From Centruroides vittatus (taxonomy: Eukaryota): a DNA stretch of 64,000 nt. Where the stretch lies: positions 5,930,248 to 5,994,247 of the forward strand of contig NW_027122708.1 in NCBI RefSeq assembly GCF_030686945.1, written 5' to 3'. The notes beneath the pieces were generated by a model that was not told the origin of the DNA, did not search any database, and saw nothing but the letters and a program-made list of their open reading frames with translations. Positions 6,172-44,977 of the stretch are shown here, piece after piece. Position 1 is the first letter of the stretch, and each line of letters begins with the position of its first letter. The position numbers were made by a program, and so were the translations under genes.

Positions 6172-6234
6172 TTATTTAGCTAATATAAGCTTTTGTTTTG
6201 AAAGCAAAGAATAGGAAGTATCTTAATAACTTTT
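6170..6234 (+). tRNA. trnS2: Mitochondrial-type tRNA-Ser(UCN). It has a 7-bp acceptor stem agttatt/aataact and a TGA anticodon in ttttgaaag.
   Basis: Cloverleaf elements located by eye. The position between cytb and nad1 matches arthropod mitochondrial gene order. Confidence 0.5.
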
Positions 6235-7183
6235 CTTAAAAGAGTACTTAATAAAGAATAAGTGAATAATAAAAATAGTCTTTACAGACAAAACAATTAG
6301 CACATAATTTAAGGCTAGAGGAAGGTAGCTTTTTCAGGCTAGATTTATTAACTTATCATATCGAAAACGAGGATATCTCCCACGAACTCATAAGAAAAGA
6401 ATAGAAAATATTAATACTTTTAAGGAGATAAAAAGAGGACCAAAGAATAAAATTGCTGTTATTATTCTTATCAAGATAATATTTGCGTATTCAGCTATGA
6501 AAATAAGAGCAAAACCTACCCCTATATATTCAACGTTAAACCCAGAAACTAGTTCGGACTCTCCTTCTGTAAAATCAAAAGGAGTTCGGTTAGTTTCTGC
6601 TAAACAAGAAGAAAATCAAACTATTAATAGGGGGAGTATAAAAATTCCAATTGAACTTAATAATTGATAGTTATTAATTTCTTTTAAATTAAAAGAAGAA
6701 GTAATTATAAGAAGAGAAAATAAAATTAAAGCAAAGCTCACTTCATAAGAAATAGTTTGAGCTACTCCTCGATAAGCCCCTAAAATGGCGTATTTAGAAT
6801 TGGAGGACCATCCAGCCACTAAAATCGAGTAGACTCTTACTCTTGAACAAGATAAAAAAAAAATAAAACCCCCCATTTTATATCAATAAAATAATATAGA
6901 GAGGGGTATAACATCCATAAAATCAAAGCTATAGAAAGACCAAAAATAGGAGAAAACAAAAAAGGATAAAGATTATATGTTTCCAATCTTGATAGCTCCT
7001 TAATAAATAATTTAATAGCATCCGAAAAGGGCTGAAATAATCCTAAAATCCCTACTTTATTAGGGCCTTTACGAATTTGAATATAACCTAACATTTTACG
7101 TTCTAACAAAGTAATAAATGCAACTCTTACTAAAATTATAATTAAAATTAATAAATAAGATAAAAATCAAAAAAAAAATTATC
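6223..7183 (-). pseudogene. nad1: NADH dehydrogenase subunit 1 (nad1), mitochondria-derived, with a frameshift in a T10/A10 homopolymer at 6863-6872
   Basis: Six-frame ORFs 6837-7109 ([31 protein letters not shown]) and 6616-6876 ([32 protein letters not shown]) are ND1 segments in different frames. TGA is used as Trp. The stop TAA is at 6223. Confidence 0.8.
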
Positions 7184-7186
7184 AAA

Positions 7187-7256
7187 GAGAGATTCTATTT
7201 ATGGAGCTTAAATCCATCGCATATATTTTGCTACATTGAATAAAACCTTTTCTCTC
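7187..7256 (-). tRNA. trnL: Mitochondrial-type tRNA-Leu. The anticodon hairpin atgga-tttaagc-tccat reads TAA. Its 5' and 3' ends are uncertain.
   Basis: It lies between nad1 and rrnL as in arthropod mitochondrial genomes. The cloverleaf was only partly resolvable by eye. Confidence 0.35.
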
Positions 7257-8372
7257 ATTAGAACTTTTCTAAACGAAGGGTCCTTTCGTACTACTTCGTT
7301 TCAATTTTTCTCTAGATAGAAACCAACCTGGCTTACACCGGTTTGAACTCAGATCATGGAAACTTTTATAAGTCGAACAGACTTCCTATTATTGCTCTTG
7401 AGCAATAGAGGTAATTTAATCCAACATCGAGGTCACAAACATGTTTGTCAATTTGAGCTTTCAAAACATATTACGCTGTTATCCCTAAAGTAACTTATTT
7501 AAATTTCAAAAATTTTGGGTATTAAAATAATACTATCTTTAATTATCTAAAAGTGTTTTTCTTTCTGCCGCCCCAGCAAAACATATTCTTAATTTACTAA
7601 ATTTTCTTATGTAAAGTTTTATAGGGTGTTCTTGTCTAAAAGAGACATTTTAGCCTTCTTACTAAAAAGTGAAGTTTAAAATCAATAGTTAAGAAAGAAA
7701 TTTTCTAGTTTACCCTTTCATTCCAGTCTTAAATTACAAGACTAATTATTATGCTACCTTTGCACAGTCAAAATACCGCGGCCATTTATTTATACATCGA
7801 GCAGGGCTCATTTTTAATCATTTCAAAAAAATATGTTTTTGGTAAACAGACCAAAAATTTTAGACGAGTTACTTAACTTTTAATTGCTTTCTTAATTATA
7901 GATTAATTTTCTACTTATTTTAACATTATTACTATCATTAAATTATTCCATGGAAACTTTAATTAATTATTAGTTTATAAAACTAAAAATAACTTAATGA
8001 TAAAATTGAAGACAATCTTATTCCTCTAATAACAAATAATTATTTTTTAAACTTACATCTAATAAAGCTTGTCCTTTATTAGATAAAAATTTTCCAATCT
8101 TTGATGCTTATCTTAAAGAACCAGATATCAAATTAGGCGTTTAGCTTTTTACTTCAATAAATCAATTTACAATTACTTTAACACGTAAAAAATATTAATT
8201 TATAGCTCATAACTTTTCGGGAAAATTAAATCCTTTAATTAATTATTAAACCCTGATACAAAAGGTACGATATTCTCCTTTTTATATATTAAAAATACCC
8301 TTACAGTTAAGTTTTCTTCAATTTCAAACTATTACTAAAAAATGACTCCCTTCTTAATAATTTTCTAAAATA
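7257..8372 (-). rRNA. rrnL: Mitochondrial large-subunit (16S) rRNA, NUMT copy
   Basis: The 3'-domain motifs ccggtttgaactcagatcatg (7336-7356) and acgctgttatccctaaagtaa (7468-7488) are present as reverse complement. The 12S 3' end at 8441 fixes the upper bound. At about 1.1 kb it is shorter than a typical insect 16S. Confidence 0.75.
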
Positions 8373-8440
8373 AAATAAACAAGATTCCAAAAAGGATCTT
8401 TTTAATGTAAATAAAAAACTTAACTAAAGCTTAATCTTGC
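8373..8440 (-). tRNA. trnV: Mitochondrial-type tRNA-Val, approximate, with the anticodon in tttacat
   Basis: It lies between rrnL and rrnS. The reverse complement contains caagattaagctttagttaagtttt...tttacatt. Confidence 0.35.
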
Positions 8441-9245
8441 TTCCAGGAACATCTTCCGATATTCCTACTATGTTACGACTTTTCTCTTATTAAAAGAGAG
8501 TGACGGGCGATATGTACATATTTTAGAGCTAGTTCAATTTAACAAATTATTACAAAAATACTTTCAAATCCTCTTTCATTTACCTTTTAATAATAAAATC
8601 CATAAATATATTTTTATATTGTAACCCATCTATACTTAAACATAAGCTGAACCTTGATCTGATATTAAAAATAAAATTACATTTAATAATAACTATAAAG
8701 TATTATTACCACAACGATATACAAACCACCAATCTAAGTAAGATATGTCGTGTATTATCGATTATAAGACAGGTTCCTCTAATAAGATTAAAACACCGCC
8801 AAAATTTTTAAGTTTTAAGCCATCTAATACTACCTGAATTTTATATTTTTTTATAACAGGGTATCTAATCCTGGTTTCTCATAAAATTTTCAAAGACCCC
8901 TAAAAAAGAAGTTTTAAATATAAAAATTCTACCTTTAACTCTTCAATCCTTCTTAAAAATATTCTTCCCCCCAAAAACTTAGCCCTACTTGATTTTATAG
9001 TATAACCGCAGCCGCTGGCACTATTTTTGCTAAATCTAAAAGAATAACTAAAACTTTTTAATAAGAAATTAATATTAAAACCTAAAAATTTCTATTTAAA
9101 ATACTAATATAAATTTATTTTCTTAAAGAAGGACTTTTAGCCAAAATTAAACCAGGACTAATAAAATGTAGAGTATATTATCTTTACTTCTCTTCTTAAA
9201 TCTTCAATAAAAAAAACGCGCCACAATGAACTTGAAAACAAAATT
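8441..9245 (-). rRNA. rrnS: Mitochondrial small-subunit (12S) rRNA, NUMT copy
   Basis: The 3' end gtgacgggcgatatgtacat / aagtcgtaacatagtaggaatatcggaag is present as reverse complement at 8443-8510. The internal motifs gggtatctaatcc (8860) and accgcagccgctggcac (9005) are also present. Confidence 0.75.
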
Positions 9246-9542
9246 TTATAAACCAAATTCCATTTTAACTTTCTTCATCCATCCTCTGGATGATGTATAT
9301 ATACTCCAGATAGGCATTTCAGAACGGAAAACCGAATAGCCCCCCGGGGGGCCTTATTCATATAGTTTTTCTGCAATGTATTGTCATTTTAACAATATTG
9401 TAGTCTCGTGATACACATTAACCTCTATTCTCGTGGCGTGGATTATTTTAGAAATCTTTTATCTCCCTTACGGAATTTTTCTAGCCTATCTCCTTAATTA
9501 ATGAGAGCGTGCATGGCCTTAGGGAACTCGCACCATACTCTA

Positions 9543-10036
9543 ACAGTAATCCTGCAACAAAAGCATGTATTTGAAGTTACAGCATATGAAATGGATTCTA
9601 CCAAACCACCTCTACGTGTTCAGGTTAATTTCACCCATGTCATGTGATTAAACCGCGAGCGCTGCTTTTTTTTTTCCGGAGATAGTTACCTTTATTCTGC
9701 GACGTAATAAAAGTGGAGTTTCAAGAACAACCTCCAACATTAAATTTTGTCAGCGTTTAGGTAAAACACCTACGGAGACTTTAAAATTGCTAAGAAAGGT
9801 GTACGGTGATTCTACCATGGCGAAGTCGAAATGTTGGAGGTTGTTCTTGAAACTCCACTTTTATTACGTCGCAGAACAAAGGTAACTATCTCCGGGGGAA
9901 AAAAACAGCAGCGCTCGCGGTTTAATCACATGACATGGGTGAAATTAACCTGAACACGTAGAGGTGGTTTGGTAGAATCCATTTCATACGCTGTAACTTC
10001 AAATACATGCTTTTGTTGTCATGGATTACTGCAGTC
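9543..10036. mobile_element. Palindromic rearranged mariner derivative. Inverted arms of about 200 bp flank an 80-bp core that encodes a mariner transposase helix-turn-helix piece (RLGKTPTETLKLLRKVYGDSTMAKSKCW).
   Basis: The arms at 9543-9745 and 9825-10036 are reverse complements. The core translation matches the mariner N-terminal LGKNT...YGDS...KS region. Confidence 0.6.
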
Positions 10037-10478
10037 CCCGAACTTTTGGATCGTATCACGTATAAGTTTCTTGGTTGCATAAAGAATATCGGGCGACTCT
10101 CAAAAGTTTCCTGCACGTCGGTGATCTAAGTTTGATTTAAATTTAAAATTTATTATAATAATTGTCACAAAGAAAATACGAATGAGTAGTTTTAGTGTGA
10201 TGGAAGAATATATTCTTGTCTATTTTAAAGTCAAATGTTTCTTAAAATTTATCAAAAAAATACGAGAAAATTCAGTAGATGAATATACAATTCGTAAAAA
10301 TTATTGATAAACTTTATGTATTGTAAGAATATAACTCAGTTATATCGAGTATTTTCAGTAAAGGGTCGTCAGATTTTATAAAAATTGTATACGTAGATAA
10401 AAAAAATTAATACAGAATTCTTATAATTTTTATTTATTCATCTAAAATTATCAATTGAATTTCGTTGTTTCAATTTAA

Positions 10479-10712
10479 GGTTAATGTTACCTATGGTGTC
10501 AAAATGGTGGCTCGTCTGTGATTCAAGGAAACAGAAGGAAAAAAAAAACAGTGGGGACGCCCTAACCTATTCTAATAAATTACCATAATTATTACCAACC
10601 AAATTATTAGAATAGGTTAGGTTAGGTTAGAACGTGCGTCCCCACTGTTTTCTTTCTTGTTTCCTTGAATCAGAGACGAGCCGCCATTTTGACACCATAG
10701 TTAACATTAACC
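10479..10712. mobile_element. Palindromic MITE, family A copy 2, carrying (TTAGG)3
   Basis: The termini, loop and arm motifs match the copy at 3756-4002. ataggttaggttaggttagaacg is visible. Confidence 0.75.
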
Positions 10713-11568
10713 CAATTTAAAATGATTCACAAGCAATACTATTAAACGAAACTCATAATGCCTGCTCTCAAACAAAATTATTTTGCGATATTTATAAAAA
10801 ATTAATTGAAAATTTGAAAATTAAACTTTTGTTCAATATAAAATTTGTCTTTATTTAGAGCGAAAATTAAGTGTTAAATCGAATGCAGTTAATGGAAAAG
10901 TATTCAACCTTGTACTGTACATGGTCATTGCCATCGTAGAAACGAAAAAATTTAAATGCTGTCCAGCAAATTTACATTCTGGATAGCTATATAATAAAAT
11001 AATTATAAAAACAATTCCATTTTATAATAGACCTAATACAAAATTTATATCAGTTTCACACAAAAGAAGTGTCGATTTTGCGAGATAAAATTGCTTCCTT
11101 ATATTGAAGCAATTTTATCTTACTAGGCTGATCTTTCTAATTATTTAACGTCAGGCAACGTAATGTTTTCAATGTTTCGGATAGTTATATTTAACAATAA
11201 GAATGCATTACTCTATTATGCTCAACATTAGAGTTTTAAATCACTGTTTCTGAATAATTCCACATAGGCCAATTCTTAAAGCAGACAGATTTATAGAAAC
11301 AAATGGAATAAGGTTTACAGAAAAGTGAAGTTTCTGTAAAAAAAATGATGTCATTGCAATATTTCTTTGGCATATGTAGAGATTAGATCATATGTTTTTT
11401 AAAATTTATGGCCTGTGTCACAAAAGTTTCTTTTTTTTACTTTCCCGGCTACTATAACAGAGGAAAAGTATGGCGATCGGTAAAAAAATGACCACCCAAG
11501 GTTTTTTGGATCAGGAGACTTGAAAGAAAAAAAATAGAATAGTTAAGATTTTGTGAAATTACTTAATA

Positions 11569-11906
11569 CAGTGGACCCCCGATATAACGCGCATATCGGG
11601 GGGAAACAACACCCGCGTTATACCGAGCAGTGCAGTGTAACGCGGTTCACCTCTTTACTTTAGCAATAATGTCAAGCTTTTCTTTTACTCATCATGCATA
11701 CAATAATTAAACACTATTCAAAGTACAGTACATGCAGGAGCTCAATACATACACAATTACTCAATACGCAGTAACAATAAAATGCGCTACTCACTAACGC
11801 CGCACGGACCTGTATAAACGTGTTTGAGCTTATCGCGTTGCGAATATTGTCTGCACTATAACTGAGCGCACGGTATAGTGAGCAGCGCTATAACGAAGGT
11901 CCACTG
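11569..11906. mobile_element. Tc1-like MITE of about 338 bp with terminal inverted repeat cagtggacc(ccc/ttc)g(a/t)tata(ac)cg and a flanking TA
   Basis: The left cagtggacccccgatataacgcg and right cgctataacgaaggtccactg are reverse complements. TA flanks both ends. Confidence 0.6.
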
Positions 11907-13343
11907 TATATATTTAAATAAAATTATAATTTATGCACAGTAGAAGTAGTTAAGATTGTACTACCTATATGGAATCGGTGTTGCTATTGATGATGCAACA
12001 ATAGTATAGTATACTTTACTCTGATGTAACTGATGCTGTATATAGGTGTAAGCAAGCTTTGAAACTGTAGTGGCAATACAACAGAATATGCAAGAAATTT
12101 CAATTGATTCAGACTCTACGGTTCTGTAGAACTGTTAGAGTGCATTAATGCTTGTGACAGATATATTCACTTCGTTCAATTTAGTGTAAAAAATTGTATA
12201 TTTTTGAACTTTAAAATAAAATTTTTATGATAATTGGATAATGGATTAAAGAAATTTTTGAAGTGTGTATGGATAATTTTGAAATGCATTATTTTAACAA
12301 GAAAGATTTTAGTTAAATGAAAATTATTTTGAAATTACAATTTATTAACGATTTATAATTAAAAATAAACTTATCATTCATTTCTTGTAATACAAATATA
12401 ATTTATTGACAACATATTTCTTACAATTTTTCTGAAGAAACATTACAACAACTGAATTTATGGTAGATACTTTATAAAAGTATGTAGTTATGTATATTTA
12501 AAAGTTGAAATTTATAAATTAAACACTAGTTTTCCCTATTAAAAAAGGAACATCAAAACTTATAGTAAACAAGAAACAATTTTCACAATGACTGTTGAAC
12601 ATATCAATAATAAATTTTAATGAAAACAACAATACTTATTGTTAGTTTATTTAAATACTATGAAGACAACACTATTTTCTAGTGTAAAAAAAAAAAAAGA
12701 AAGAAGACAATGAAATAGCAAATATTTATTTGCATCTTAAAATTAAGAATTTGGAAGATTCAAAAATAAATCTAAAAGTTCAAATATATTCAAAGTCACT
12801 TATCAGTTCATATATTAAAATGACAAATTTGAAAACATTTCTGGACCTTTGGTCCCTGGAAATTTTCAATTAGCAATAGGAATTACTGTATTCAAAAATT
12901 AAAAGTAGAGGATTATTGAATTTATTCTTTTACTGTTAGTAATTTTTATTCATGTAACAGAAATTACTTTCATTATTATCAACTATTTGATCTTCATTAC
13001 ATCTAATAAAAATATAGCAAATATGATATGTTATTTTTGGAAAGTATTTCAACTTGTTGAATACATGAAATTATATATTATTGAATTTAAACGATATAAC
13101 ATTTAATAATAAAGAGCCACATATATTATATATATATATATTAAAAAATTCCATAGACTGATTACAGTAGATATAAAGATATGTAATTTTGCTAATTTTA
13201 TGTACTTTTCATTCTAACAGCTAAACAATATCACTATTCAGTATAAAGAAATAAGTTATTTTGACCAATAAATGGTTATTTATAGAAACAAAAGTAACAT
13301 TAGAATTTATATTCATTTTATAATTACATTGAATATATGTATA

Positions 13344-17937: not shown

Positions 17938-18495
17938 TGTATAATGTAAATATATAAATAAGTTCAATGGAATAATTATACTTGTGTTTAATGATGCTAA
18001 AGCAACAAATGCAAAACTGTATAAAAATTTCTTTAACAGGTTTAAATGAAATTTACAGGTAATTAATCATAATAATGCATGAAAGAAGGAAGAGTTCTGT
18101 TGAATATTTAACAAGTTATGTAAATTATGCAATTAATATTGTGATGAAACATCAGACACCTTATATCACTGAAAAATGTTTATTAAACAAAACACTAATG
18201 TTTTCAACCTAATAGAATAGGCCATTTTCAAGTGTAACTACTGAATTCAAATGTATTTTAAAAATTTAACATTCTAACAACAGAACGTCCAAATATTTTT
18301 ACATTTAAATTTAAGACAAAAATATCAGATACATTAACAAATAAATAATAAAATAAACTATATTAAATAAACTAAAACAACTATGATATAAATAATATAA
18401 TAAAATAGATAAAATAAAATAAAATACATAAAATTCATCTAAATGTAAGAGCAGGTGCAGACTAAGAGTTTTTATATTTTAACTTTTCTTCTATG

Positions 18496-19951
18496 TATGA
18501 GGCGTGTCCGGGAAGTAAGTACCGTTTTGGAAAAACTCGCATAAAAAATCTTTTTTCAAAACAAAATTTATTTTTACATGAAAGAGCATGTCGGAAACTA
18601 TCTTTCTACACAGTTACCACCATTGTTCAGACATTTGTCATATCGGGAAACCAATTTGTCTATACCCTCTTCAAAGAAAGATGCCACCAGTGAAGACAGC
18701 CACTGCTGAACATTGGTTGTTGCGTCGTCATCGCTGGCAAAGCGCCTCCCTCCAAAATCACGCTTCAAGTTCAAGAACAAATGGTAGTCTGCAGGTGTGA
18801 GGTCGGGGCTGTATGGCGGGTGATCAAACTGCTCCCAACCGAATTGTTGAATCATGTTTTGGGTGACACCAGCAGTATGGGGACGTGCGTTGTCATGAAG
18901 CAACACAATGCCTTTACTGGGACTTCCACGCCTTTTGTTTTGAATTGCATGGCGAGGTTTTCGCAATGTTTCACAGTATCGTTCTGCATTGATGGTTTCA
19001 CCTCTGGGAAGGAACTCAACAAGCAGAATGCCCTGTCTGTCCCAGAATACAGTATGGGAAATGTATGGATTAGTAGAAAATGTAGATGGATGAAATGGAT
19101 TAGTGGGAAATGTAGGTTTAGTAGCCGGTAAGTCATAAGACAGGTACGACATAATTAGGACGATGGGGGACGGCTGTCCCAGAATACAGTGCACATGATT
19201 TTTCGTGCTGACAATGTTGTTTTGAATTTGTGTTTTGTGGGGAACCATGAGTGCCTCCACTCCATTGACTGTTGTTTTGATTCTGGAGTGACATGACAAA
19301 CCCAAGTTTCATCACCGGTAACAATTTTGTTTAGGAAATCATTACCCTCTTCACTGTATCGGATAAGAAATGCCAAAGCACTTCCAAGTCGCTTCGTTCT
19401 GTGGACATCCGTAAGCATTTTGGAGACTCAATGGGAACACAATTTACGATAATTTAAGTGATTTGTGACAATCTCATGCAAAACAGTTTTTGAAATTTGT
19501 GGAAACTCATCACAAAGCAATCTTATTGTGAACCGTCTGTTTTCACGAATTTTCTCATTCACTTTTGCAACCAAACCATCATTGACAACAGAAGGCCGCC
19601 CACTCCATGCTTCGTCATGAACATTGTCCATCATTGAATTGTCAAACCCACTTTCTCACCATTCCATCACTCATTACATTTTCACCATAAATCTCTACAA
19701 GTTGACGATGAATTTCAACTGGCTTAACATTCTTTGCATTCAAAAACCATATTACAGAACGCACTTCACAGTCGACGGGATCGGCAATCGTCTTAAATAT
19801 TTTGAACGCTCACTAACATGTGAAAAAACAACACAATCTTTCATGGCGTCACTGGACTGACAATCAACCAGAAACACATATGCGCAGGCGCTGAACTGCG
19901 ATACTACTGCTGCGGTGGCAGTAGAACAAAACGATACTTACTTTCTGGACA
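18496..19951 (-). mobile_element. Mariner-like element of about 1.46 kb with 26-bp terminal inverted repeats tatgaggc(g/a)tgtcc(g/a)g(g/a)aagtaagta
   Basis: The terminal inverted repeats at 18496-18521 and 19926-19951 are reverse complements. The internal transposase ORFs carry mariner signatures. Confidence 0.8.
18598..19634 (-). pseudogene. Mariner transposase, frameshifted across three ORFs. N-terminal helix-turn-helix SGRPSVVNDGLVAKVNEKIRENRRFTIRLL; DD34D catalytic-domain motifs HDNARPHTA and HPPYSPDLTPADYHLF.
   Basis: Six-frame ORFs 19428-19634, 19155-19418 and 18598-19305. Signature mariner motifs are present. Several frameshifts make it non-functional. Confidence 0.8.
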
Positions 19952-21204
19952 TGCCTCATAGAATTTCCATGCAGAAGCTAGTTATTTATATCGTCGTTGT
20001 TTTAGTTTATTTAATATATTTTATTTTATTATTTATTTGTTAATTTACCTAATATTTTCGTTTTAAATTTAAATGTAAAAATATTCGGATGTTCCATCGT
20101 TAGAATGTTAAATTTTTAAATACGTTCGAATTCGGTTACACCTGAAGATGGCCTATTTTATTAGGTTGAAAACATTAGTGTTTTGTTTAATAAACATTTC
20201 TCAGTGATAGAAGGTGTTTGATGTTTCATTAAGTGTTTAAAAAGGCTGAGTTTGATATTTGGTTAGTAATTAATATCCAAAACTGATATGCAAAAATTTA
20301 ATAATAAAGCACCTTCATTAGGGCATATAAGAGCTTCAAACAATAATGCAAACATAACAACTCAGCATGCTACAAATAAGGTCATCAATGAGCTTTTGTA
20401 GCATTAATTACCATTCCTGCAAAACAATATATCCAAGCTTTTGGGGTTGCATTAAGATGCACTAAGACTAGCAAAACCTCTTTCTTAAATTTCCAAAAGA
20501 ATTCAATGAGATTTAATCAGATAATCTTATTGGTCAATCAAGCTGCTATCAATTCATGCTAGTTTGATTTATACCAATTGACAATAATGCCAGTTTTAAA
20601 TTCTCCCTAAAAAAAAATCTCAAAATAAATTTTTCCACAATGTGTAAAAATGTTTTGAAAATGCATTTAGCATTTTCAAAACCATTTTCCTGATGGTAGT
20701 GCTTCATTTTAATACTATTAATAATGAGTCTGTGCAGTCTTAGTAACCTGAAGTGTTAGGGAAAAGTCGCCTAAGTCGTATCAGTGCTTAAATCGTACCT
20801 CAATGATTTCAACAGTACTTTATTCACCATACAAATGGCAACAGTATATAATTATATGGCTCGGCTATGTACTTATGCACATAGACAATGCACATCTCCA
20901 TTTCAAAGAATTAAGACTGTTTTTGGTAAACAAATTCATTTATAGTTGTTTGAGTGTAATTTTCATCTGGTGTGTGGAAGCTCCTAAGGTAAGAAAACAC
21001 TAGTTAAATACATTTTGCTTTTTTAGTACAAGTTATATATCTATTAGTGATTTGTTTGCCTCTTGCAGTTTTGTGAAAGATTTTTTCAAAATAGTTTTGG
21101 GGCTTTATGAACTGACATGCACGCTGTGTCTTATGTTGTACCCCCTTAGAATCTACAGACACTATCGCCAAGCAGCAATTTTGGCATTATATGTTGCAAC
21201 CCAC

Positions 21205-32730: not shown

Positions 32731-33111
32731 TTATGCATAATGCTGTAGGTCAATATGTGTTAAACTCTTTGGCAATATAGTCAGTAGTGATTCTTTTACA
32801 CTCATGAATTCTCTGATCAATTCTTCTTTCACCATATCAGTCACTACAGTGGTTAGGCATCCAGAATGGTTGTTGAAGTTCAAATTCTCTCTCCCATTCT
32901 TGAATATTTGTACTAGTTGATATACATCTTCTTGACTAAAACAATTATCACCATACTGTGCTTTTATTTGGCAATAAATTTCAGCTGGCTTCATTCCCTC
33001 ACCATTCAAAAAATGAACAACACCACACTGCTTTTCAGTAGTGCAATTTAAAAGTGGTGTGACCATTTTGAAATTACACTGCCAGGTGCAGATGTTGCAG
33101 TGTTGCACCAT
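32731..33111 (-). pseudogene. Mariner-like transposase N-terminal helix-turn-helix fragment (EKQCGVVHFLNGEGMKPAEIYCQIKAQYGDNCFSQEDVYQLVQIFKNGRENLNFNNHSG...), truncated
   Basis: The six-frame ORF matches the N-terminal helix-turn-helix domain of mariner transposases (E.R.VI.F....G.....I...L...YG......STV.RW...F..GR......SGRP). It lies immediately next to the LINE 3' end. Confidence 0.6.
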
Positions 33112-33532: not shown

Positions 33533-36500
33533 TTAGTTTGTTTTGTTTTTATAAATGTCGATTATTTTACAAAAATAGTTATAAATTTTATATAAGTCTT
33601 TTTTACCCATTTTGTTGAAGTTTTTTAACAATTCTATTAGCGAATTGCATTTATAAGTTCGAGTTATGTCATAGTGTTCACGAATATCATTTAATTTTGG
33701 ACATTTTAATATTAAATGATAAGGTGTTGAATCATCGGAGTTACATAAGAAACATTTTGTTGATAAGCTTATGTAAGTGTTGTTAACATACAGCGAATTT
33801 TTATTTAAACGAAGTTGTGCTATAAAGCGTTTTACATTCAAGTTTACCGAATACAACATATATGATTGAACTGATGGTATTTTAAATATATCTAAGTACC
33901 ACGGATGATATTTACTGCTATGTAATGAGAACTGATCTTTGTTTATGGATTGTGCCATAGCTGAGTTTAAAAGTAGTGAGTAGCCTGTTTTCCAATCTTG
34001 AATGTTATCTTGAAATAGTAGTTCTGATACTCCAAAAGAGTTGAAGATAGTTTTTAATTTGTTATGCCATAGCTGTTTATTTTTTTGAAGTTTACTTTGC
34101 TTGATGTTTTCATGATATAGAGCAATCAAATTGTTGTCACTATTGAATTTGAGTCTGTAATAAAATTTAATGATTCGTTTTAATATGAACGGGAAAGACC
34201 ATATACGATTGGTTTCATGACGTAGTGCATATCCGGGTATTGTCCGTTCTAACTGAAATAATCTGCGTAGATAGTAAATATGGAATCGTTCTAATTTGTA
34301 GAGATAATCCAAGCTCCAAATGGGACTGGCGTAGAATATCATTGGATTAATAATCGAATTGTAAAGTTTCATGTGTATTCTTAAGTCAGAAGTTTTCAAT
34401 CTGCTGCATAAAAACAAAAGATTATCGATTGCTTGATTGACTTTATTGTTAAGTTTAGAAATGTGCGATTTAAATGTTAAGTTCCAGTCAAAATTAATTC
34501 CTAGGTAATTTATCTCATTGACAGTTTGTAGCAGGATATTTTCATGATAAATTTTTGTTTCGTTAACAGATATTTTACTGTTGTTCCGAAAAATAATTAT
34601 TTTAGTTTTACTTGGATTAACTGCTAAATATTTAGACTTAAAATGCGAATTTAATTGATTGATTTTCCTTTGGAGAGAAATTTTTGTCGGTGCTACCACA
34701 ACCAAGTCATCAGCAAAGAGAATATAATGAAATGCTTTATTGCCTATGAGTATACCATCGTTTACTTCAGAAAAAAGATGATCTATATCTTTCAAATAAA
34801 AGTTAAATAAATGTGGAGATAATGGATCTCCTTGAAGAATACCACGTGAATGCGTTAATGGTGGAAGAATGTTTTTACCGTGCTTGATCTTTATTTTATA
34901 ATTTTGAAATAATATTGATATTGTTCCTGTAAATTGAGAACTAGCACCACTCTCCTTAAGTTTTTGTTGTAAAAAAGGTACATATACTGAATCGAATGCC
35001 TTTTTAATATCTATAAAAGCAGCATACACTTTTCTATGTTTTTTTACGAGATATATTTGAATAATCATTAGCAAAGTAAATATCGCAAATTCGGTGCCTT
35101 TATTTTTTGTATAAGCAAACTGAAATTCTGCTTCTAACTCGTTGATTTTGATCCAATTTTGAAATTTTTTTGCAAGTATCGATGTAAAACATTTTCTAAG
35201 TGTAGATAACAAAGCTATAGGTCTATAGTTTTCTGGAGCCATCTGGTCTCCCTTTTTATAGATCATCGTCATGATTATGGAATTCCAAGATTCAGGATAG
35301 GACAATGTGCTGTACATAGCATTGAATATTTTCAATAATTTTATTTTAGATTCCGTTGGTAGCATTTTTAAGAATTTGGTTGGTATGTTATCATCCCCTG
35401 GGGTAGTATTGTTTTTTGTTTTTTGAATTACTTCGTCGAGTTCATTCATAGTCAAGTCAGCGTTTAAATAATCATCATAATAATTAATATTTCTTTCCAT
35501 TGGAACTTTTAAATTTTTTATAATGAAGCTTTGATAAAATTTCTTCCAAGTTTCGAATCTTATACAAATGTTAATATCTCCTAGATTAGCTTTTGGTCGA
35601 AATTTTCGGATAGTATTCCAAAATATTTTGCTATTATTACTATTATTTATTAAATTTGATTCAATTCTACAAAAGTAGTTTTTCTTTTTCGTCTTAATTA
35701 AGTTATTGTAGATTCGTTTGGAGTTTTTGTAATTAATCAAATTTTCTTTATTAGGATTTTGCCTGTAAATTTTTAAATCTTGTTGCTTTCGCCGTTTTTC
35801 TTTGTAACAATCTGAATCATACCAGATTTTTTTATTTTTATTTTGCGCGTATTTGTTATCCTTGTTTGATATTATATAATCATTCATGATATTCATCATT
35901 ATTTTGTATACCTCTTCACAGTTATTATTAGTTACTTCTAGCATATTTTTAAACCGATTTCCAATTTCGGACTCATAACTAGCCAATTTGTACTTTATCT
36001 TGAAGTTGTTGTTATATATATAATCCGAATTCTCAAAAGGAAATAAACGGAATTTTGCTATTGTAGGAAAATGATCTGAAATATCAAAATTCGTAGTCTG
36101 AAATTCTACACAACAATCTAAGAATAATTCAGAGCATATTGTGAAATCTATGGTCGAAGCACCCGTATTGGTCAAGCAAGTATGTTCAGCTGGAATATCC
36201 TGTTGAATTCTGCCGTTAAGAAGAAACAATCTGTGTTCTGTTAGCAACTCGATAAAGTTTTTACCCAATCTGTTGGTTTGTTTATCTTTCGAAAGACGTT
36301 TATTAGATATATTGAAATTGGCACCTTTATATTTTGAATCTATTAACTCACCAATCCTTGCATTAAAATCTCCCACTACCAAAATGAGCGGAGAAATATG
36401 ACTCCAACTTTCTAATGTTTTAAACATATTTTTTAAAGTACTTAGATCATCAGGCAGAATATAAGCAATTAATAATGTTATTAAATTATTCGTTTTATTT

Positions 36501-36814
36501 ACCAAAGTAGGCTTCTGTAATGAGATAAGAAGTAGCATATAATTGTTGAATTTTTTTATGTCAATTATTTTACCAAGGTTCTTTTTTATAAGGATACATA
36601 TACCTCCACTTGGACGGCCTGGACCTGTAGGTTTTTGTGCTTGAATCGATTCCACTATAAAGTTATTAAAAAATTTTGTTTTATAATACAAATTCGAAGT
36701 AATCCAAGTTTCAGTAATTGCTAAAATATCCGGATCGTATTTAACACAAAAATTATTTATTAGTGACGTTTTATTTTTTATTCCTTGGCCATTCCAGTTA
36801 GCAATGGAAACCAT
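33533..36814 (-). CDS. LINE ORF2 polyprotein of 1093 aa. N-terminal apurinic/apyrimidinic endonuclease (DILAITETW), reverse transcriptase (FADDLVVVA box) and C-terminal Cys motif CFLCNSDDSTPYHLILKC.
   Basis: Uninterrupted ORF starting with ATG. The domain order and motifs are those of LINE ORF2. Confidence 0.85.
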   Translation of the reverse strand: MVSIANWNGQGIKNKTSLINNFCVKYDPDILAITETWITSNLYYKTKFFNNFIVESIQAQKPTGPGRPSGGICILIKKNLGKIIDIKKFNNYMLLLISLQKPTLVNKTNNLITLLIAYILPDDLSTLKNMFKTLESWSHISPLILVVGDFNARIGELIDSKYKGANFNISNKRLSKDKQTNRLGKNFIELLTEHRLFLLNGRIQQDIPAEHTCLTNTGASTIDFTICSELFLDCCVEFQTTNFDISDHFPTIAKFRLFPFENSDYIYNNNFKIKYKLASYESEIGNRFKNMLEVTNNNCEEVYKIMMNIMNDYIISNKDNKYAQNKNKKIWYDSDCYKEKRRKQQDLKIYRQNPNKENLINYKNSKRIYNNLIKTKKKNYFCRIESNLINNSNNSKIFWNTIRKFRPKANLGDINICIRFETWKKFYQSFIIKNLKVPMERNINYYDDYLNADLTMNELDEVIQKTKNNTTPGDDNIPTKFLKMLPTESKIKLLKIFNAMYSTLSYPESWNSIIMTMIYKKGDQMAPENYRPIALLSTLRKCFTSILAKKFQNWIKINELEAEFQFAYTKNKGTEFAIFTLLMIIQIYLVKKHRKVYAAFIDIKKAFDSVYVPFLQQKLKESGASSQFTGTISILFQNYKIKIKHGKNILPPLTHSRGILQGDPLSPHLFNFYLKDIDHLFSEVNDGILIGNKAFHYILFADDLVVVAPTKISLQRKINQLNSHFKSKYLAVNPSKTKIIIFRNNSKISVNETKIYHENILLQTVNEINYLGINFDWNLTFKSHISKLNNKVNQAIDNLLFLCSRLKTSDLRIHMKLYNSIINPMIFYASPIWSLDYLYKLERFHIYYLRRLFQLERTIPGYALRHETNRIWSFPFILKRIIKFYYRLKFNSDNNLIALYHENIKQSKLQKNKQLWHNKLKTIFNSFGVSELLFQDNIQDWKTGYSLLLNSAMAQSINKDQFSLHSSKYHPWYLDIFKIPSVQSYMLYSVNLNVKRFIAQLRLNKNSLYVNNTYISLSTKCFLCNSDDSTPYHLILKCPKLNDIREHYDITRTYKCNSLIELLKNFNKMGKKDLYKIYNYFCKIIDIYKNKTN

Positions 36815-36868
36815 TTGATTATTCTTTATGACTTTGTTATGTTGCGTATATTTTTGCTTAACATGATA

Positions 36869-37843
36869 TCAACTGTCTGTATTTATTTGATTACTATAAG
36901 GACGAAAATTATTTACATAAACCAATTTGCTCAATTTTAGGCTATATGTTATTTTTTCTTGGTTAATCGTTAATATATCATTACGGAGTTTAACTTGGTC
37001 TTTTTGTTTTCGTAATTCATGAAGTATTGGGAGTAAATTTTTCTTTCTTATCCTTGAGTTTTTAGTCAAATCTGGGGATATTTGCATATCTTCCCATTCT
37101 TCTAATGCGTTTTTTTGTTGTTTCTTTTGAATAAAGGTATAGAAAAATTTATCACGAAGTTGCTTATTGCTGAATGTTATTCTTACTGTTGTATTAGGTT
37201 TCTTAGTTATTAAGTTTGTTTCTGTTATCTCAGTTTGGGCTATATCGTGAATGTTTAGTACATTAGTCATAAAGTTATATACTTCTAACGTAGATATGGA
37301 TTTCGAGCTTGGATATTTGTATACAATTATTTTTTTATAATTATAATCATTAATTAAAGAGTCTATTTTAAATTGCGTTAGTTCATTTTCACTTTTTTGA
37401 TTTTCTAGTTGTTGTTTTATATTTTTAATTTCTTCCTCCATATATATCTGTCTTTCCTTAGTCTCACGTATATCTTGACGTATTCGTTCTACGTCTTCTT
37501 TTATATAGACCATTTGTTCTAACAGTTTATCATTTGAAGCATTTATTAAATCTGATATTTTAGTCCATAGAAGTGCAGTTGTAGTGTCAAGTTGACTTGC
37601 TGGATTAGTAAGAAGGCTTGAATTAATATTAGGTGACTCACCTGTTGAGCCTAATGAATTCTGCTGACCAGGTTCCATATTTTGATTCGAGAATTCTTTT
37701 GTTCCTTCTTGTGAATCACTTTTCGGTTGTGTTCCGTAATCCGTAATGAGTTTGGAGCTTGAAGTGCTTGGTTGAGCTTGTTTGTTCTCTGTCCTCGTTC
37801 TGGTCAGTGGAGGTCTTCCACGCTTGACTGGAGATCTTTGCAT
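36869..37843 (-). CDS. LINE ORF1 protein of about 324 aa from the first ATG. Basic N-terminus, long coiled-coil (IKEDVERIRQDIRETKERQIYMEEEIKNIKQQLENQKSE) and a C-terminal putative RNA-binding region. There are no CCHC zinc knuckles, so it is of the L1-like type.
   Basis: The six-frame ORF 36869-37885 uses a non-ATG start. The first ATG is at 37841-37843. Confidence 0.7.
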   Translation of the reverse strand: MQRSPVKRGRPPLTRTRTENKQAQPSTSSSKLITDYGTQPKSDSQEGTKEFSNQNMEPGQQNSLGSTGESPNINSSLLTNPASQLDTTTALLWTKISDLINASNDKLLEQMVYIKEDVERIRQDIRETKERQIYMEEEIKNIKQQLENQKSENELTQFKIDSLINDYNYKKIIVYKYPSSKSISTLEVYNFMTNVLNIHDIAQTEITETNLITKKPNTTVRITFSNKQLRDKFFYTFIQKKQQKNALEEWEDMQISPDLTKNSRIRKKNLLPILHELRKQKDQVKLRNDILTINQEKITYSLKLSKLVYVNNFRPYSNQINTDS

Positions 37844-38524
37844 ATTATTATTTTTTTGTATTATTGCTTTTTCCTTTACCTTCACTTAGTTAGTGTTAGT
37901 TTAAACTTGTTTAATAATAAGTTAATCAAATAAACAGTAATTCACCACTTCGCTGCACAAATGAAAGGTTCACAGAAAAAGTCACTCGCAGCGCCCGACA
38001 AACTATATTTTTATATATAGATATATGGATAAAATATATTTTCTTTCTCAAAAAAATATTTTATTTAAATGTTAAATTACATATTGTGTTGATTTAACTT
38101 TTTCACTTTCTTTATAAATATATAGTAAAGGAATTTTATATTTAAAGTAACTTTTAAAAAAAAGACACAAATATAAGAAATGCTAAAAATTTAATCATGT
38201 TTTTTGGAATAAATATAATTTATTTAACTAATGCTATTGTTGAATTTATGAAAGAAAGTAAATGAGAACTGTTAAGCTGATGACTCCACAGTTTATTTTA
38301 ACAGATATTTTATTTTTAAATCTATCCATTGAGATTTAAGAGATAAGTTATTTAAGATTTGTATAAATATCATATAGATATTAATACCCTTTGTTAAAAT
38401 TAATTTATTCCATTTACATTCTTTATCCCTTCTGCAATTATTTTAGTTTTGATATCTCAAAAAATTATACATTTAACATATTTATGTAGTAATTTCTCTA
38501 AAATATTAAAATAATAATAAATGA

Positions 38525-42262: not shown

Positions 42263-42812
42263 TTATCTTTTCTTCTTATTTACTTCTATACTTAACTTTA
42301 ATAACAAGCAGTACATGTTTACATCTTTAATTTCCACCGTACAACCTTGAACAGCATGATTATTGTTATCTTCACAATGATATTGAATAATTCCACCAAG
42401 ATAATCCTGCCAAGTTGTGGAATCAACACTAGCGACCAAAGGGCCATGAAATGCCATTAATTTTAGCATTTCTTCTTCTGATCCTTTTAAATCTTCACAG
42501 GTATAATTAAATTTTAATTCTATTCCTTTTTTTGGTCTTATGGCTTTACAGTTTGTCTCTTTGTCAGTTAAAGGATATTGTTTTTCAGTTAAAATTTTCA
42601 CTTTATTCTCATACATCCAGTCTAAGACCTCAAAAGTATCTCCACCATCATAACCACAGTTTGTTCCAGTTGCACAATCTATTACTTGCTGCACATTCAA
42701 TTCTACAAGTTCACCTGTCTTTAAAGCATTCATACTTTCTAATGTTTCTACAGTACTAAACGTCCAACATGCACCACATTCCTTCTGACTTTTCACTGGA
42801 GTAACAATTCCA
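42263..42812 (-). pseudogene. Papain-family (C1A, cathepsin-L-like) cysteine-protease fragment. It covers the mature-domain N-terminal roughly 170 aa (PGIVTPVKSQKECGACWTFS...DCATGTNCGYDGG...NHAV) with no propeptide and no intron, and is frameshifted at its 3' end.
   Basis: The conserved Q19 and C25 region QKECGACWTFS, the GCxGG-like block and the His region are recognisable. The copia RT fragment abuts it in-frame upstream. Confidence 0.6.
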
Positions 42813-43443
42813 GGTTTCCTCCTGGCTTTATATATTCATTTTCACTCTTCTTTCTGTATATCCACTTCACATCAATTACCCTTTTGTCTTTGGGAGGCTT
42901 GCTTACAAGTGTCCATGTATTGCTTATCACAAGACTCTCCATCTCAGAATTCATTGCTGCTTTCCATTTCTTTGAATCATCAAATGTCATTGCCTCCTGA
43001 AAATTTTCTGGAACCGTAGCATCACAGTAATTTACACTTATACAGTAATAACCAAATTCTTCATCAAAATGGAGTGGATGTTTAATTAGTCTTCCTGATC
43101 TTTTTCCTTTCTTCTTTTCTTCATCATCTTTTATCTCATCATTACTATTTTCTTCATGTGTTTTGTCCTTTTCCAAGTCTTTTGTCATATCTTTTTCTTT
43201 CTGATTTGTATTAGTGGAATCTTCTTCTTCGTTCTCCTTTGTTTGGTCTGAATCCTTTTGTCTTTCTTCCTTATCTTCATTCTTTTCCTCTTCCTCATTT
43301 TTGAATCCACACAAAGTTACATCTTCTTCTATTATGTCACAGTGTCTAGCCATTATAACTCTGCTATTCACCAATACTCTATATCTGGTGTCTGTATATC
43401 CAAGTAAAATTCCAACTTCCATTTTCTTGTCCCACTTCCATTT

Positions 43444-44136
43444 TCATTTTTCTTCTGGAATTCTTATAAATACTTTACTTCCATACATTTTTAGATTTTT
43501 TACTGATGGCTTCCTTTTGAAAAATATTTCATATGGCATTTTTCTCTCAATGGTGTTAGTTAAGGTTCTGTTTTTAAGATATGCAGCTGTTTTAATTACT
43601 TCTGGCCAAAATCTTCTTTCATTCTTTGCTTCTGATAAGAGACATCTCCCCATATCCATTAATGATCAATTGTATCTTTCTGCAGTTCCATTTAGTTCAT
43701 GCACATATGCTGGACAAGGTTTTATTATTATTCCTTTTTCTTTTGCAAACTTAAAAACTCTTGCATTCATATACTCCTTCCCATTGTCACATCGCAGTTC
43801 CTTTATCATCTTTCCAGACAAGTTTTGTATTTCATTAATATACTGCACTAAGCATTCATATACCTCATCTTTTGTCTGGATACAATAAATTTTAACTATT
43901 TTGTTATAGTCATCTATGAAGTTTAAGAAATATTTTTCTCCAAGATTTCCTGTAGTTTGATGTGGTTCATTTAAATCTGTATGTACAATCTCTAATATGT
44001 CTTCTGCTCTTCTCCTGTTGTTATGAAATGGTAAGTTATGCATTTTGTTTTCAATACATGTAGCACAATTTAAATATTCTGGTTCAATCTCACTGGGTAG
44101 TCTGTCTAATGATTCATTTTTACACATTATTTCCAA
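43444..44136 (-). pseudogene. Copia integrase core (HTDLNEPHQT...FIDDYNKIV...LRCDNGKEYMN...PCPAYVHELNGTAERYN and its continuation), frameshifted
   Basis: The rve-domain DDE pattern H..D / D / E is present in ORFs 43666-44136 and 43444-43659. Confidence 0.75.
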
Positions 44137-44542
44137 GTTGTTAAAATTGATATGTCCAGTTGTTTTCTACGTAGTTTTTCTTTTATAGTCATATTGCTTT
44201 TACTCATGTTTGCTTGTGATTTTTTTTCATTGATATAACTTTTCATTTTATATAGTTTATCCTCTTTATTGCAACAGCTATCAGCCTTCCATATGGGTTG
44301 TATATTTTGGAGAATTTCCCTCTTGAAACAACTGAATGTTTGTCTGTGATTTTTGAATAACTTAACAAATTTGCTTTCATATCTTTTACAAAAAAAAAAA
44401 AAAAAACATTTTCCAATGTCACCTCAGAATTTTGTCCACAAACTGGGAAACAAGTTTTAATATTACCAACTTTTGTAGCTTCTAATATTCTTCCATCATC
44501 AATTTTTACAATATAATAAGAAATGCTTACTGGAACAAAAAA

Positions 44543-44687
44543 ATCAGAAATTAAATCTATTACACGCCTTTAAAGTATCCAGCATACTGTTAAATTTTCA
44601 TAAGAACGTTTTCGATCACTTTTAGAGATCTTAAATTTAACAGTATGCTGGATACTTTAAAGGCGTGTAATAGATTTAATTTCTGAT
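44543..44687. mobile_element. Hairpin MITE of about 145 bp inserted in the copia gag-integrase region, with 55-bp inverted arms
   Basis: atcagaaattaaatctattacacgcctttaaagtatccagcatactgttaaattt ... is the reverse complement of the right arm. Confidence 0.65.
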
Positions 44688-44977
44688 TTTTAATCAATTT
44701 TTACTTTTACTGATTCCTTCAATGTCTCACAGGTTTCAAAATACTCATCAGTGTTAATAATATGGTCTGTGTAACCACTACCAAGTAACCATTCTATTTC
44801 ATCTTTCCCTGGCTTTTTGTTTTTACTTGTTTTATAAGTATTGTTTGCAATGGTAACCTGAAAACTATTTCCTTGATATTCATGTATGCATTGATGATAA
44901 TTTCCTTATCCTCTCTGAAAGTTTCTGGCATTGAACAATCCATGTCCTCGATAAACAGAAAAACCACGACCTCCACC

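What the first reader, a model, noticed from the sequence alone, without database searches (positions are those of the whole stretch)
18144..20229. Mariner element sitting exactly between roughly 250-bp inverted repeats, a long-terminal-inverted-repeat shell around a canonical short-repeat mariner
The mariner at 18496-19951 has 26-bp terminal inverted repeats and a frameshifted DD34D transposase. It is flanked by much longer inverted repeats at 18144-18395 and 19983-20229 that are not part of the mariner consensus end. Either a mariner inserted into the loop of a pre-existing foldback MITE, or this lineage has long-inverted-repeat mariners whose inner 26 bp are the binding sites. The asymmetric inner spacers of about 100 bp and about 32 bp favour the nested-insertion reading.
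Basis: seen in the sequence. Interest (0 to 1): 0.55.

Follow-up and report, generated by a model that had tools for sequence, protein, structure and literature searches.

The report
Dead mariner nested in foldback repeat
A decayed mariner transposon in a scorpion (Centruroides) genome landed at a TA between the two 250-bp arms of an older hairpin-shaped repeat; this is ordinary nesting of one mobile element in another, not a new kind of long-armed mariner.

Summary
Arms 18144-18395 and 19982-20229 are inverted repeats (226/248 identical). Between them lies a DD34D mariner on the minus strand.

Corrected coordinates:
- Mariner: 18498-19958, not 18496-19951.
- Terminal repeats: 32 nt, matching at 28/32.
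- TA duplication: 18496-97 and 19959-60.

The mariner is dead. Its start codon is lost, it has two stops and a frameshift, and it carries a private 137-nt insertion.

The nested-insertion reading is supported:
- The mariner ends and TA match three independent relatives.
- The closest relatives (88-91% nt, L001 and L002) run from the TA straight into unrelated DNA.
- The arms contain nothing resembling the mariner terminal repeat.
- Decayed fragments of the arm's outer 55-87 nt occur elsewhere in C. sculpturatus without a mariner, and their homology starts at the same outer boundary.
- About 45 nt of the spacer asymmetry comes from an (AATAA)n tract that is longer in the left arm.

What the shell is remains less certain. 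It is most likely a non-autonomous long-inverted-repeat DNA transposon of 623 bp. However, I found no second full copy, no empty copy and no clean target duplication in 253 kb of Centruroides DNA (189 kb of C. sculpturatus loci plus the 64-kb window), so its superfamily is unassigned.

The host was identified from a mitochondrial ND1 pseudogene in the window. Interest is low.

The parts
18144..18395 (+). Left arm of the outer inverted repeat (252 nt). Its inner part, from about 18339, is a degenerate (AATAA)n tract.
   Evidence: 226/248 identical to the right arm; tandem tract 18339-18434
18396..18495 (.). Left inner spacer. 18396-18434 continues the (AATAA)n tract, which is longer here than in the right arm. 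18435-18495 is unique loop sequence.
   Evidence: (family D1; pairs I3, I4)
18496..18497 (.). TA target-site duplication, left copy
   Evidence: Relatives L001, L002 and L006 also have TA directly outside CGAGGC....
18498..19958 (-). Decayed DD34D mariner: 1461 bp as found, 1324 bp without its private insertion
18498..18529 (.). Mariner terminal inverted repeat at the 3' end relative to the transposase: TGAGGCGTGTCCGGGAAGTAAGTACCGTTTTG
   Evidence: I5. Relatives start with CGAGGC, so the terminal CpG has decayed to TpG.
18598..19800 (-). Transposase pseudogene. The start codon ATG has become ATA at 19798-19800. There are two in-frame stops, a 5-nt deletion frameshift and a 137-nt insertion. 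The stop codon is at 18598-18600.
19054..19190 (.). Private insertion inside the mariner: 120 nt of filler plus a second copy of the 17-nt CTGTCCCAGAATACAGT (first copy at 19037-19053). Absent from L001 and L002.
   Evidence: (D5)
19927..19958 (.). Mariner terminal inverted repeat at the 5' end relative to the transposase
   Evidence: I5
19959..19960 (.). TA target-site duplication, right copy
19961..19981 (.). Right inner spacer (21 nt of unique loop sequence)
19982..20234 (-). Right arm of the outer inverted repeat. 19982-20229 pairs with the left arm. 20230-20234 (TAAGT) is shared with the L004 and L009 fragments and probably belongs to the repeat terminus.

Best explanation
This is a two-step nesting.

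Step 1 (inferred). A 623-bp non-coding element was already in the genome. It has arms of about 250 bp in inverted orientation and a loop of about 85-125 nt. It is most likely a non-autonomous DNA transposon with long terminal inverted repeats (a foldback-like MITE).

Step 2 (shown by the sequence). A canonical 1.3-kb mariner with short terminal repeats was cut and pasted into a TA dinucleotide in the loop, duplicating the TA.

Both elements then decayed in place, largely by CpG-to-TpG/CpA transitions. The mariner lost its start codon and reading frame and acquired a 137-nt insertion, so neither part is mobile now. The arms are not part of the mariner and could not be used by its transposase.
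For: - The mariner ends are fixed by three independent relatives that all read TA|CGAGGC...GCCTCG|TA (L001, L002, P0023 family in L006). The window has the same ends with TA on both sides.
- The two closest relatives (88-91% nt, intact 356-aa ORFs) go from the TA straight into DNA unrelated to the arms. This covers 2244 nt upstream in L002 and 88 nt downstream in L001.
- Most of the other close homologues sit on contigs of 1316-1338 bp, about the 1324-bp short-repeat unit.
- The arms hold no sequence resembling the mariner terminal repeat. The best local score is 6, against a shuffle mean of about 8.
- The inverted repeat stops 100 and 21 nt short of the mariner, and the spacers are unrelated to each other.
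- Decayed copies of the outer 55-87 nt of the arm occur in C. sculpturatus at L004 5643-5725 (82%) and L009 1785-1839 (79%), with no inverted partner found and not attached to any mariner. Their homology begins at the same outer boundary, CTTAATGAA. This marks the arm end as a true repeat terminus.
- The ages are compatible. The arms differ by K2P 0.096, about 5% per arm. The mariner has 5.4% copy-specific changes, half of them C>T or G>A.
- 18 of the 84 TAs in the empty element lie in the loop, so a loop hit is about a 1-in-5 event.
Against: - No empty copy and no second full-length copy of the shell was found in 189 kb of C. sculpturatus plus the 64-kb window.
- Two scans of the metagenome collection and one of the viral collection also found none.
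- The outer ends have no clean target-site duplication (TG on the left, TA on the right). The left end lacks the CTTA seen at the right end and in L004.
- The dispersed fragments share only the outer third of the arm, so it is not shown that the whole 250-bp arm belongs to a mobile family.
- No other copy of this exact mariner lineage from the same genome could be examined.
Confidence: 0.8

Rival explanations
1. The arms are two separate copies of a short (about 250-290 bp) dispersed repeat that inserted independently in opposite orientation about 120 bp apart. The mariner landed between them, or they landed on either side of it. On this reading there never was a single foldback element.
For: - The same genus shows this arrangement. 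In L006 a P0023-family mariner lies between two inverted copies (8181-9456 / 11171-12438, 85%) of a dispersed repeat of about 3 kb. That repeat is also present as single copies in L008 and again in L006.
- Each arm ends inward in an A-rich tract of variable length, which is reminiscent of a retroposon tail.
- No outer target-site duplication spans the pair.
Against: - The repeat is rare: no intact copy in 253 kb. Two full-length copies within about 120 bp by chance is therefore unlikely.
- The dispersed fragments keep the outer end. On the retroposon reading that is the 5' end, whereas retroposons usually lose it.
- There is no tRNA, 7SL or 5S-like head.
- Both arms stop at the same inner and outer positions.
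Confidence: 0.1
2. The arms arose by a local inverted duplication of about 250 bp of resident DNA, for example by fold-back repair of a break. That DNA happened to include an old repeat fragment at its edge. The mariner insertion is unrelated or came later.
For: - Only the outer 55-87 nt of the arm has dispersed relatives. The inner 165 nt has none in the sample.
- There is no outer target-site duplication.
- The left terminus lacks the CTTA seen at the right terminus.
Against: - The outer edge of both arms coincides, within 5 nt, with the point where homology to the L004 and L009 fragments begins. An arbitrary duplication would not be expected to end there.
- The 9% arm divergence shows that it is old, not an assembly artefact.
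Confidence: 0.07
3. This is a long-inverted-repeat mariner. The 250-bp arms are the true ends of the element, as in Mcmar1 or long-repeat Bari elements, and the 32-nt repeats are inner binding sites.
For: - Long-inverted-repeat members of the superfamily exist: Mcmar1 with 355-bp repeats (PMC8664452) and Bari2/3 with repeats of about 250 bp (PMC4877112).
- The arm length here is in that range.
Against: - A TA duplication sits directly outside the 32-nt repeats.
- The arms contain no terminal-repeat-like motif.
- The inverted repeat is interrupted by unrelated spacers of unequal length.
- The outer ends are flanked by TG and TA, not TA and TA.
- The nearest relatives lack the arms.
- Arm-terminus fragments occur without a mariner.
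Confidence: 0.02

Closest known systems
mariner family of the Tc1/mariner (IS630-Tc1-mariner) superfamily; structural prototype Mos1 (PDB 3HOS)
   Same: - Length of about 1.3 kb.
- 32-nt terminal inverted repeats and a TA target duplication.
- A single transposase of about 356 aa with HTH_48 and Transposase_1 domains and DD34D spacing.
- The relative P0001 aligns end to end with Mos1 transposase.
   Different: - This is a dead copy: start codon lost, two stops, one frameshift, 137-nt insertion.
- The lineage is closest to unnamed arachnid-type sequences: 85% aa to Logan and JGI contigs, and 68-79% to spider and scorpion proteins labelled 'SETMAR-like'.
- The subfamily was not assigned.
Long-inverted-repeat Tc1/mariner elements: Mcmar1 of Meloidogyne chitwoodi (355-bp repeats) and Bari2/Bari3 (about 250-bp repeats with internal direct repeats)
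   Same: A mariner-type transposase gene lies between inverted repeats of a few hundred bp (PMC8664452, PMC4877112).
   Different: In those elements the long repeats are the element's own ends, and in the Bari elements they carry direct repeats (PMC4877112). That these repeats serve as transposase-binding sites, and that the TA duplication lies outside the long repeats, is general knowledge of the superfamily and was not read from the cited papers. Here the TA lies inside the arms, the arms carry no such site, and the repeat is separated from the mariner by unrelated spacers.
MITEs and foldback-type non-autonomous DNA transposons (for example Drosophila FB/Tetris, Tm1 of Meloidogyne), and nested insertions of one TE in another
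   Same: - The empty shell is short (623 bp) and non-coding.
- Its arms make up about 80% of its length, and it is predicted to fold into a hairpin of about 250 bp (-294 kcal/mol as RNA).
- It has been hit by another TE, as is routinely seen in TE-rich genomes (PMC4877112 reports MITE and TE nesting in Bari elements).
   Different: - No target-site duplication, no multi-copy family and no autonomous partner was shown.
- Apart from an (AATAA)n tract at the inner end, the arms are not built of tandem subrepeats. That classical FB elements have tandem-subrepeat arms is from general knowledge.

Membership tests
mariner (DD34D, Tc1/mariner superfamily) | Transposase homologous to mariner transposases over its full length | tested here: met
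   Pfam Transposase_1 1.7e-20, HTH_48 6.6e-08, DDE_3. 2909 homologues, best 85% identity over 99% of the query. P0001 versus Mos1 3HOS E = 9e-56, residues 12-355.
mariner (DD34D, Tc1/mariner superfamily) | Catalytic D,D(34)D spacing | tested here: met
   Read from the translations: TGDETW ... LLHDNARPH, then 34 residues, then PADYHLF.
mariner (DD34D, Tc1/mariner superfamily) | Short terminal inverted repeats (about 20-40 bp) at the element ends | tested here: met
   32 nt, 28/32 matching, at 18498-18529 and 19927-19958 (I5). The same ends occur in L001, L002 and L006.
mariner (DD34D, Tc1/mariner superfamily) | TA target-site duplication | tested here: met
   TA at 18496-97 and 19959-60.
mariner (DD34D, Tc1/mariner superfamily) | Intact ORF (autonomous copy) | tested here: not met
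   ATG has become ATA, and there are two stops, a 5-nt deletion and a 137-nt insertion. It is a member of the family but a dead copy.
Long-inverted-repeat mariner/Tc1 (Mcmar1, Bari LIR type) | Long repeats carry transposase-binding sequence at or near their outer ends, related to the inner sites | tested here: not met
   The best local match of the 32-nt terminal repeat to either arm scores 6, below the mean of 300 shuffles (about 8).
Long-inverted-repeat mariner/Tc1 (Mcmar1, Bari LIR type) | TA duplication outside the long repeats, none required at the inner sites | tested here: not met
   The outer flanks are TG (18142-43) and TA (20230-31). A perfect TA pair brackets the inner 32-nt repeats.
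Long-inverted-repeat mariner/Tc1 (Mcmar1, Bari LIR type) | Relatives and copies of the lineage carry the same long repeats | tested here: not met
   L001 and L002 (88-91% nt) have unrelated flanks. Most of the other close homologues sit on contigs of about 1.32-1.34 kb. Copies from the same genome could not be examined.
MITE / foldback-type non-autonomous DNA transposon | Terminal inverted repeats, small size, no coding capacity | tested here: met
   Arms of 252 and 248 nt at 91% identity. The empty element is 623 bp and has no ORF of note.
MITE / foldback-type non-autonomous DNA transposon | Target-site duplication abutting both ends | tested here: not met
   No matching 2-10-nt direct repeat abuts the ends. 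AATTAATAT occurs 4 nt and 38 nt outside the two ends, but by rough estimate an all-A/T 9-mer at such offsets in 70% A+T DNA has about a 0.2 probability by chance. The element is old, so decay of the duplication is possible.
MITE / foldback-type non-autonomous DNA transposon | Dispersed multi-copy family sharing the same termini | tested here: inconclusive
   There are two decayed fragments of the outer 55-87 nt in 189 kb of C. sculpturatus (L004, L009), with homology starting at the same terminus. No second full-length copy was found, and a whole-genome census is not possible with these tools.
Drosophila FB-type foldback element | Arms composed of tandem subrepeats | tested here: not met
   Tandem Repeats Finder reports only a degenerate (AATAA)n tract at the inner arm ends.

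The most novel reading that the evidence does not exclude
The 2.1-kb composite (arms plus loop plus mariner) is itself a mobile unit. On this reading a long-inverted-repeat shell, mobilised by an unidentified transposase, has captured a mariner as cargo and spread it. Alternatively, the hairpin with a mariner in its loop is kept as a source of small RNAs against that mariner. Neither is excluded, because no whole-genome census of copies was possible.
Probability: 0.03. Interest if true: 0.55.

Novelty: new member of a known kind. Interest (0 to 1): 0.1.

Why it matters
It matters little beyond annotation. It adds a dated example of TE nesting in a scorpion genome, an unnamed mariner lineage with arachnid-type relatives, and an uncharacterised long-inverted-repeat repeat whose superfamily is still open. 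For repeat annotators the practical point is that the 250-bp arms should not be merged into the mariner consensus. If the shell family proved abundant or recently active in Centruroides, it would deserve its own library entry.

Tried and rejected
- **Other copies in the window.** There are none of the arms or the mariner.
- **DNA scans of public collections.** The conserved arm 20-mer gave 0 hits in the metagenome and viral collections, and one chance 22-nt match in an Aequorivita genome. A gapped pattern conserved in all three arm copies gave 0 metagenome hits.
- **Exact look-up of the window's LINE ORF2**, to locate the source contig. It is not on record.
- **Homologue search with the same ORF2**, to obtain many Centruroides loci. 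The best hits were only 24-35% identical.
- **Look-ups of two C. vittatus cluster members.** They are not on record.
- **Sampling C. sculpturatus** through nine loci that carry another mariner family. This gave 189 kb and yielded only two arm fragments.
- **Search of viral contigs for mariner relatives.** None found.
- **Rfam scan of the region**, to test for a tRNA-like SINE head. The only hit was a sub-threshold snoRNA match inside the mariner.
- **Literature search for the terminal-repeat sequence.** No hits.
- **Superfamily assignment of the shell** from its termini and flanks (TA, TTAA, TWA, 8- or 9-bp duplications, CACTA-like or P-like ends). Nothing convincing emerged.
- **Assembly artefact as an explanation for the palindrome.** Rejected, because the arms differ at 9% of sites and by indels.

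Full report
**What is in the sequence**

The region 18144-20229 holds a long inverted repeat. BLAST aligns 18144-18395 to 20229-19982 as one 252-nt hit at 89.7% identity, E = 1e-93. The repeat finder shows the same pairing as two blocks separated by small indels. A MAFFT alignment gives 226 identical positions of 248, with 18 transitions, 4 transversions and 4 gap columns (K2P 0.096). Eight of the 22 differences are CpG versus TpG/CpA. The right arm keeps 8 CpGs and the left arm keeps 1.

The arms stop pairing at 18395 and 19982. Their inner ends are degenerate (AATAA)n tracts of 96 nt on the left (18339-18434) and 48 nt on the right (20000-20047). The truly unique loop is 18435-18495, then TA, then 19961-19981.

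**The mariner**

Between the arms, on the minus strand, lies a mariner. Its ends are 32-nt inverted repeats at 18498-18529 and 19927-19958, matching at 28 of 32 positions, each preceded on the outside by TA.

The boundaries are not a matter of judgement. Three independent relatives read TA|CGAGGC...GCCTCG|TA:
- L001, a Logan contig.
- L002, a JGI metagenome contig.
- The P0023 family in Centruroides sculpturatus (L006).

In the window the terminal CpG has decayed to TpG at both ends. The correct values are 18498-19958, TA at 18496-97 and 19959-60, and 32-nt repeats.

The stitched conceptual translation has Pfam Transposase_1, HTH_48 and DDE_3 domains. It has 2909 homologues, the best at 85% identity, and shows DD34D spacing (read). 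Its intact relative P0001 aligns end to end with Mos1 transposase (E = 9e-56).

The copy is dead. ATG has become ATA at 19798-19800, and there are two in-frame stops, a 5-nt deletion and a 137-nt insertion at 19054-19190. The insertion consists of 120 nt of filler plus a second copy of a 17-nt motif, and it is absent from L001 and L002.

**Host**

The window is 29.7% G+C and full of transposon remnants. A mitochondrial ND1 pseudogene at about 6230-7190 (minus strand) is 95% identical in protein to Centruroides vittatus ND1, and the next-best hits are other Centruroides species. Nine loci of C. sculpturatus fetched later have 29.6% G+C. The window therefore comes from a Centruroides scorpion. 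Which species was not determined.

**Nested insertion or long-inverted-repeat mariner?**

Every feature that could be tested points to nested insertion.
1. The TA duplication sits directly outside the 32-nt repeats, inside the arms.
2. The two closest relatives (88-91% nt identity, intact 356-aa ORFs) pass from the TA into DNA unrelated to the arms. This covers 2244 nt on one side in L002 and 88 nt on the other side in L001. Most of the other close homologues lie on contigs of 1316-1338 bp, about the 1324-bp short-repeat unit.
3. The arms contain nothing resembling the mariner terminal repeat. The best local score is 6, below the mean of 300 shuffles. The mariner transposase would therefore have nothing to bind at the outer ends.
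4. The inverted repeat is separated from the mariner by unrelated spacers of unequal length.
5. The outer flanks are TG and TA, not a TA pair.
6. Decayed copies of the arm's outer 55-87 nt occur in C. sculpturatus at L004 5643-5725 (82%) and L009 1785-1839 (79%). No inverted partner was found for either, and neither is attached to a mariner. Their homology starts at the same outer boundary, CTTAATGAA.

Known long-inverted-repeat relatives are Mcmar1 (355 bp; PMC8664452) and Bari2/3 (about 250 bp; PMC4877112). In those elements the long repeats are the element's own ends. This is not the case here.

**Ages and chance**

The ages fit nesting. The arms differ by about 9.6%, roughly 5% per arm. 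The mariner has 5.4% copy-specific changes relative to L001 and L002, half of them C>T or G>A.

A hit in the loop is not remarkable. 18 of the 84 TA dinucleotides of the reconstructed 623-bp empty element lie in the loop.

**What the shell is**

This is the weak point. The empty element would be 623 bp and non-coding, and it is predicted to fold into a hairpin of about 250 bp. That fits a non-autonomous DNA transposon with long terminal inverted repeats.

The coincidence of both outer arm ends with the start of homology in the dispersed fragments argues that these are real transposon termini rather than the edges of an arbitrary duplication.

Against this:
- I found no second full-length copy and no empty copy in 189 kb of C. 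sculpturatus plus the 64-kb window. The metagenome and viral scans found none either, and the one hit in prokaryote genomes was a chance 22-mer.
- There is no clean target-site duplication.
- The left terminus lacks the CTTA present at the right terminus and in L004.
- The superfamily cannot be assigned.

Two rivals for the origin of the arms remain: two independent copies of a short repeat, and a local inverted duplication. The first has a precedent in the same genus. In L006 a mariner of another family lies between inverted copies of a dispersed repeat of about 3 kb. Neither rival changes the conclusion that the mariner is a secondary TA insertion between pre-existing arms.

**Verdict**

This is an ordinary nested transposon insertion in a repeat-rich scorpion genome. 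The 'foldback MITE' label for the shell is plausible but unproven.

Novelty is limited to an unnamed mariner lineage and an uncharacterised long-inverted-repeat repeat.

The decisive test is a whole-genome census of arms and mariner in the Centruroides assemblies.

Noticed in passing
window 6230-7190 (minus strand): Nuclear copy of mitochondrial ND1 (a NUMT). It is nearly intact, with one frameshift under the invertebrate mitochondrial code, and is 95% identical in protein to Centruroides vittatus ND1. It identifies the host genus.
   Followed up: partly
window 19037-19190: Inside the mariner there is a 120-nt filler flanked by a perfect 17-nt direct repeat (CTGTCCCAGAATACAGT). The filler contains two copies of a roughly 21-nt motif, 30 nt apart. 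It has no other copy in the window or the fetched loci and is absent from related mariners. It may be a templated repair insertion or a tiny retroposed insert.
   Followed up: partly
window 33533-37885 (minus strand): An apparently intact non-LTR retrotransposon: ORF1 of 338 aa and ORF2 of 1093 aa (endonuclease plus reverse transcriptase). Its closest database proteins are only 24-35% identical, including one from C. vittatus. It may be a young, unannotated LINE lineage.
   Followed up: partly
window 42263-45409 (minus strand): Copia-type remnants (gag, integrase, the first ~28 residues of RVT_2) are followed directly by a 177-aa papain-family cysteine protease ORF (Peptidase_C1, 5e-28) where the reverse transcriptase should continue. 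This could be a chimera, a captured gene fragment or an insertion.
   Followed up: no
window 32731-33111 (minus strand): A second ORF of 126 aa whose sequence resembles the N-terminal part of a mariner transposase by eye. It has no Pfam hit and is unrelated in DNA to the 18498-19958 element.
   Followed up: no
L006 7596-12594 (C. sculpturatus KZ494348.1): A nearly intact mariner of the P0023 family (9835-11173) lies between two inverted copies (8181-9456 / 11171-12438, 85%) of a dispersed repeat of about 3 kb. That repeat is also found in L008 17102-20236 and L006 15299-16493. This is a second case of a mariner inside an inverted-repeat shell, produced here by a cluster of copies of one repeat.
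   Followed up: partly
L004 5630-5740 (C. sculpturatus KZ494485.1): The 83-nt fragment of the arm terminus is bracketed by a 9-nt direct repeat, ATAATCATA (and by TA on both sides). This may be a target-site duplication of a very short derivative, or it may be chance.
   Followed up: partly
window 18144-18395 versus 19982-20229: CpG decay is strongly one-sided. The right arm retains 8 CpGs and the left arm 1, which accounts for 8 of the 22 arm differences. This could reflect unequal methylation of the two arms, or arms that were not identical to begin with.
   Followed up: no
L004-L012, positions about 9835-11175: Nine copies of one mariner family in C. sculpturatus are 94-99.7% identical to each other, and several have intact ORFs annotated as 'SETMAR-like'. 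This points to a recently active mariner in this scorpion. JGI and ENA metagenome contigs hold members of the same 90% cluster.
   Followed up: partly
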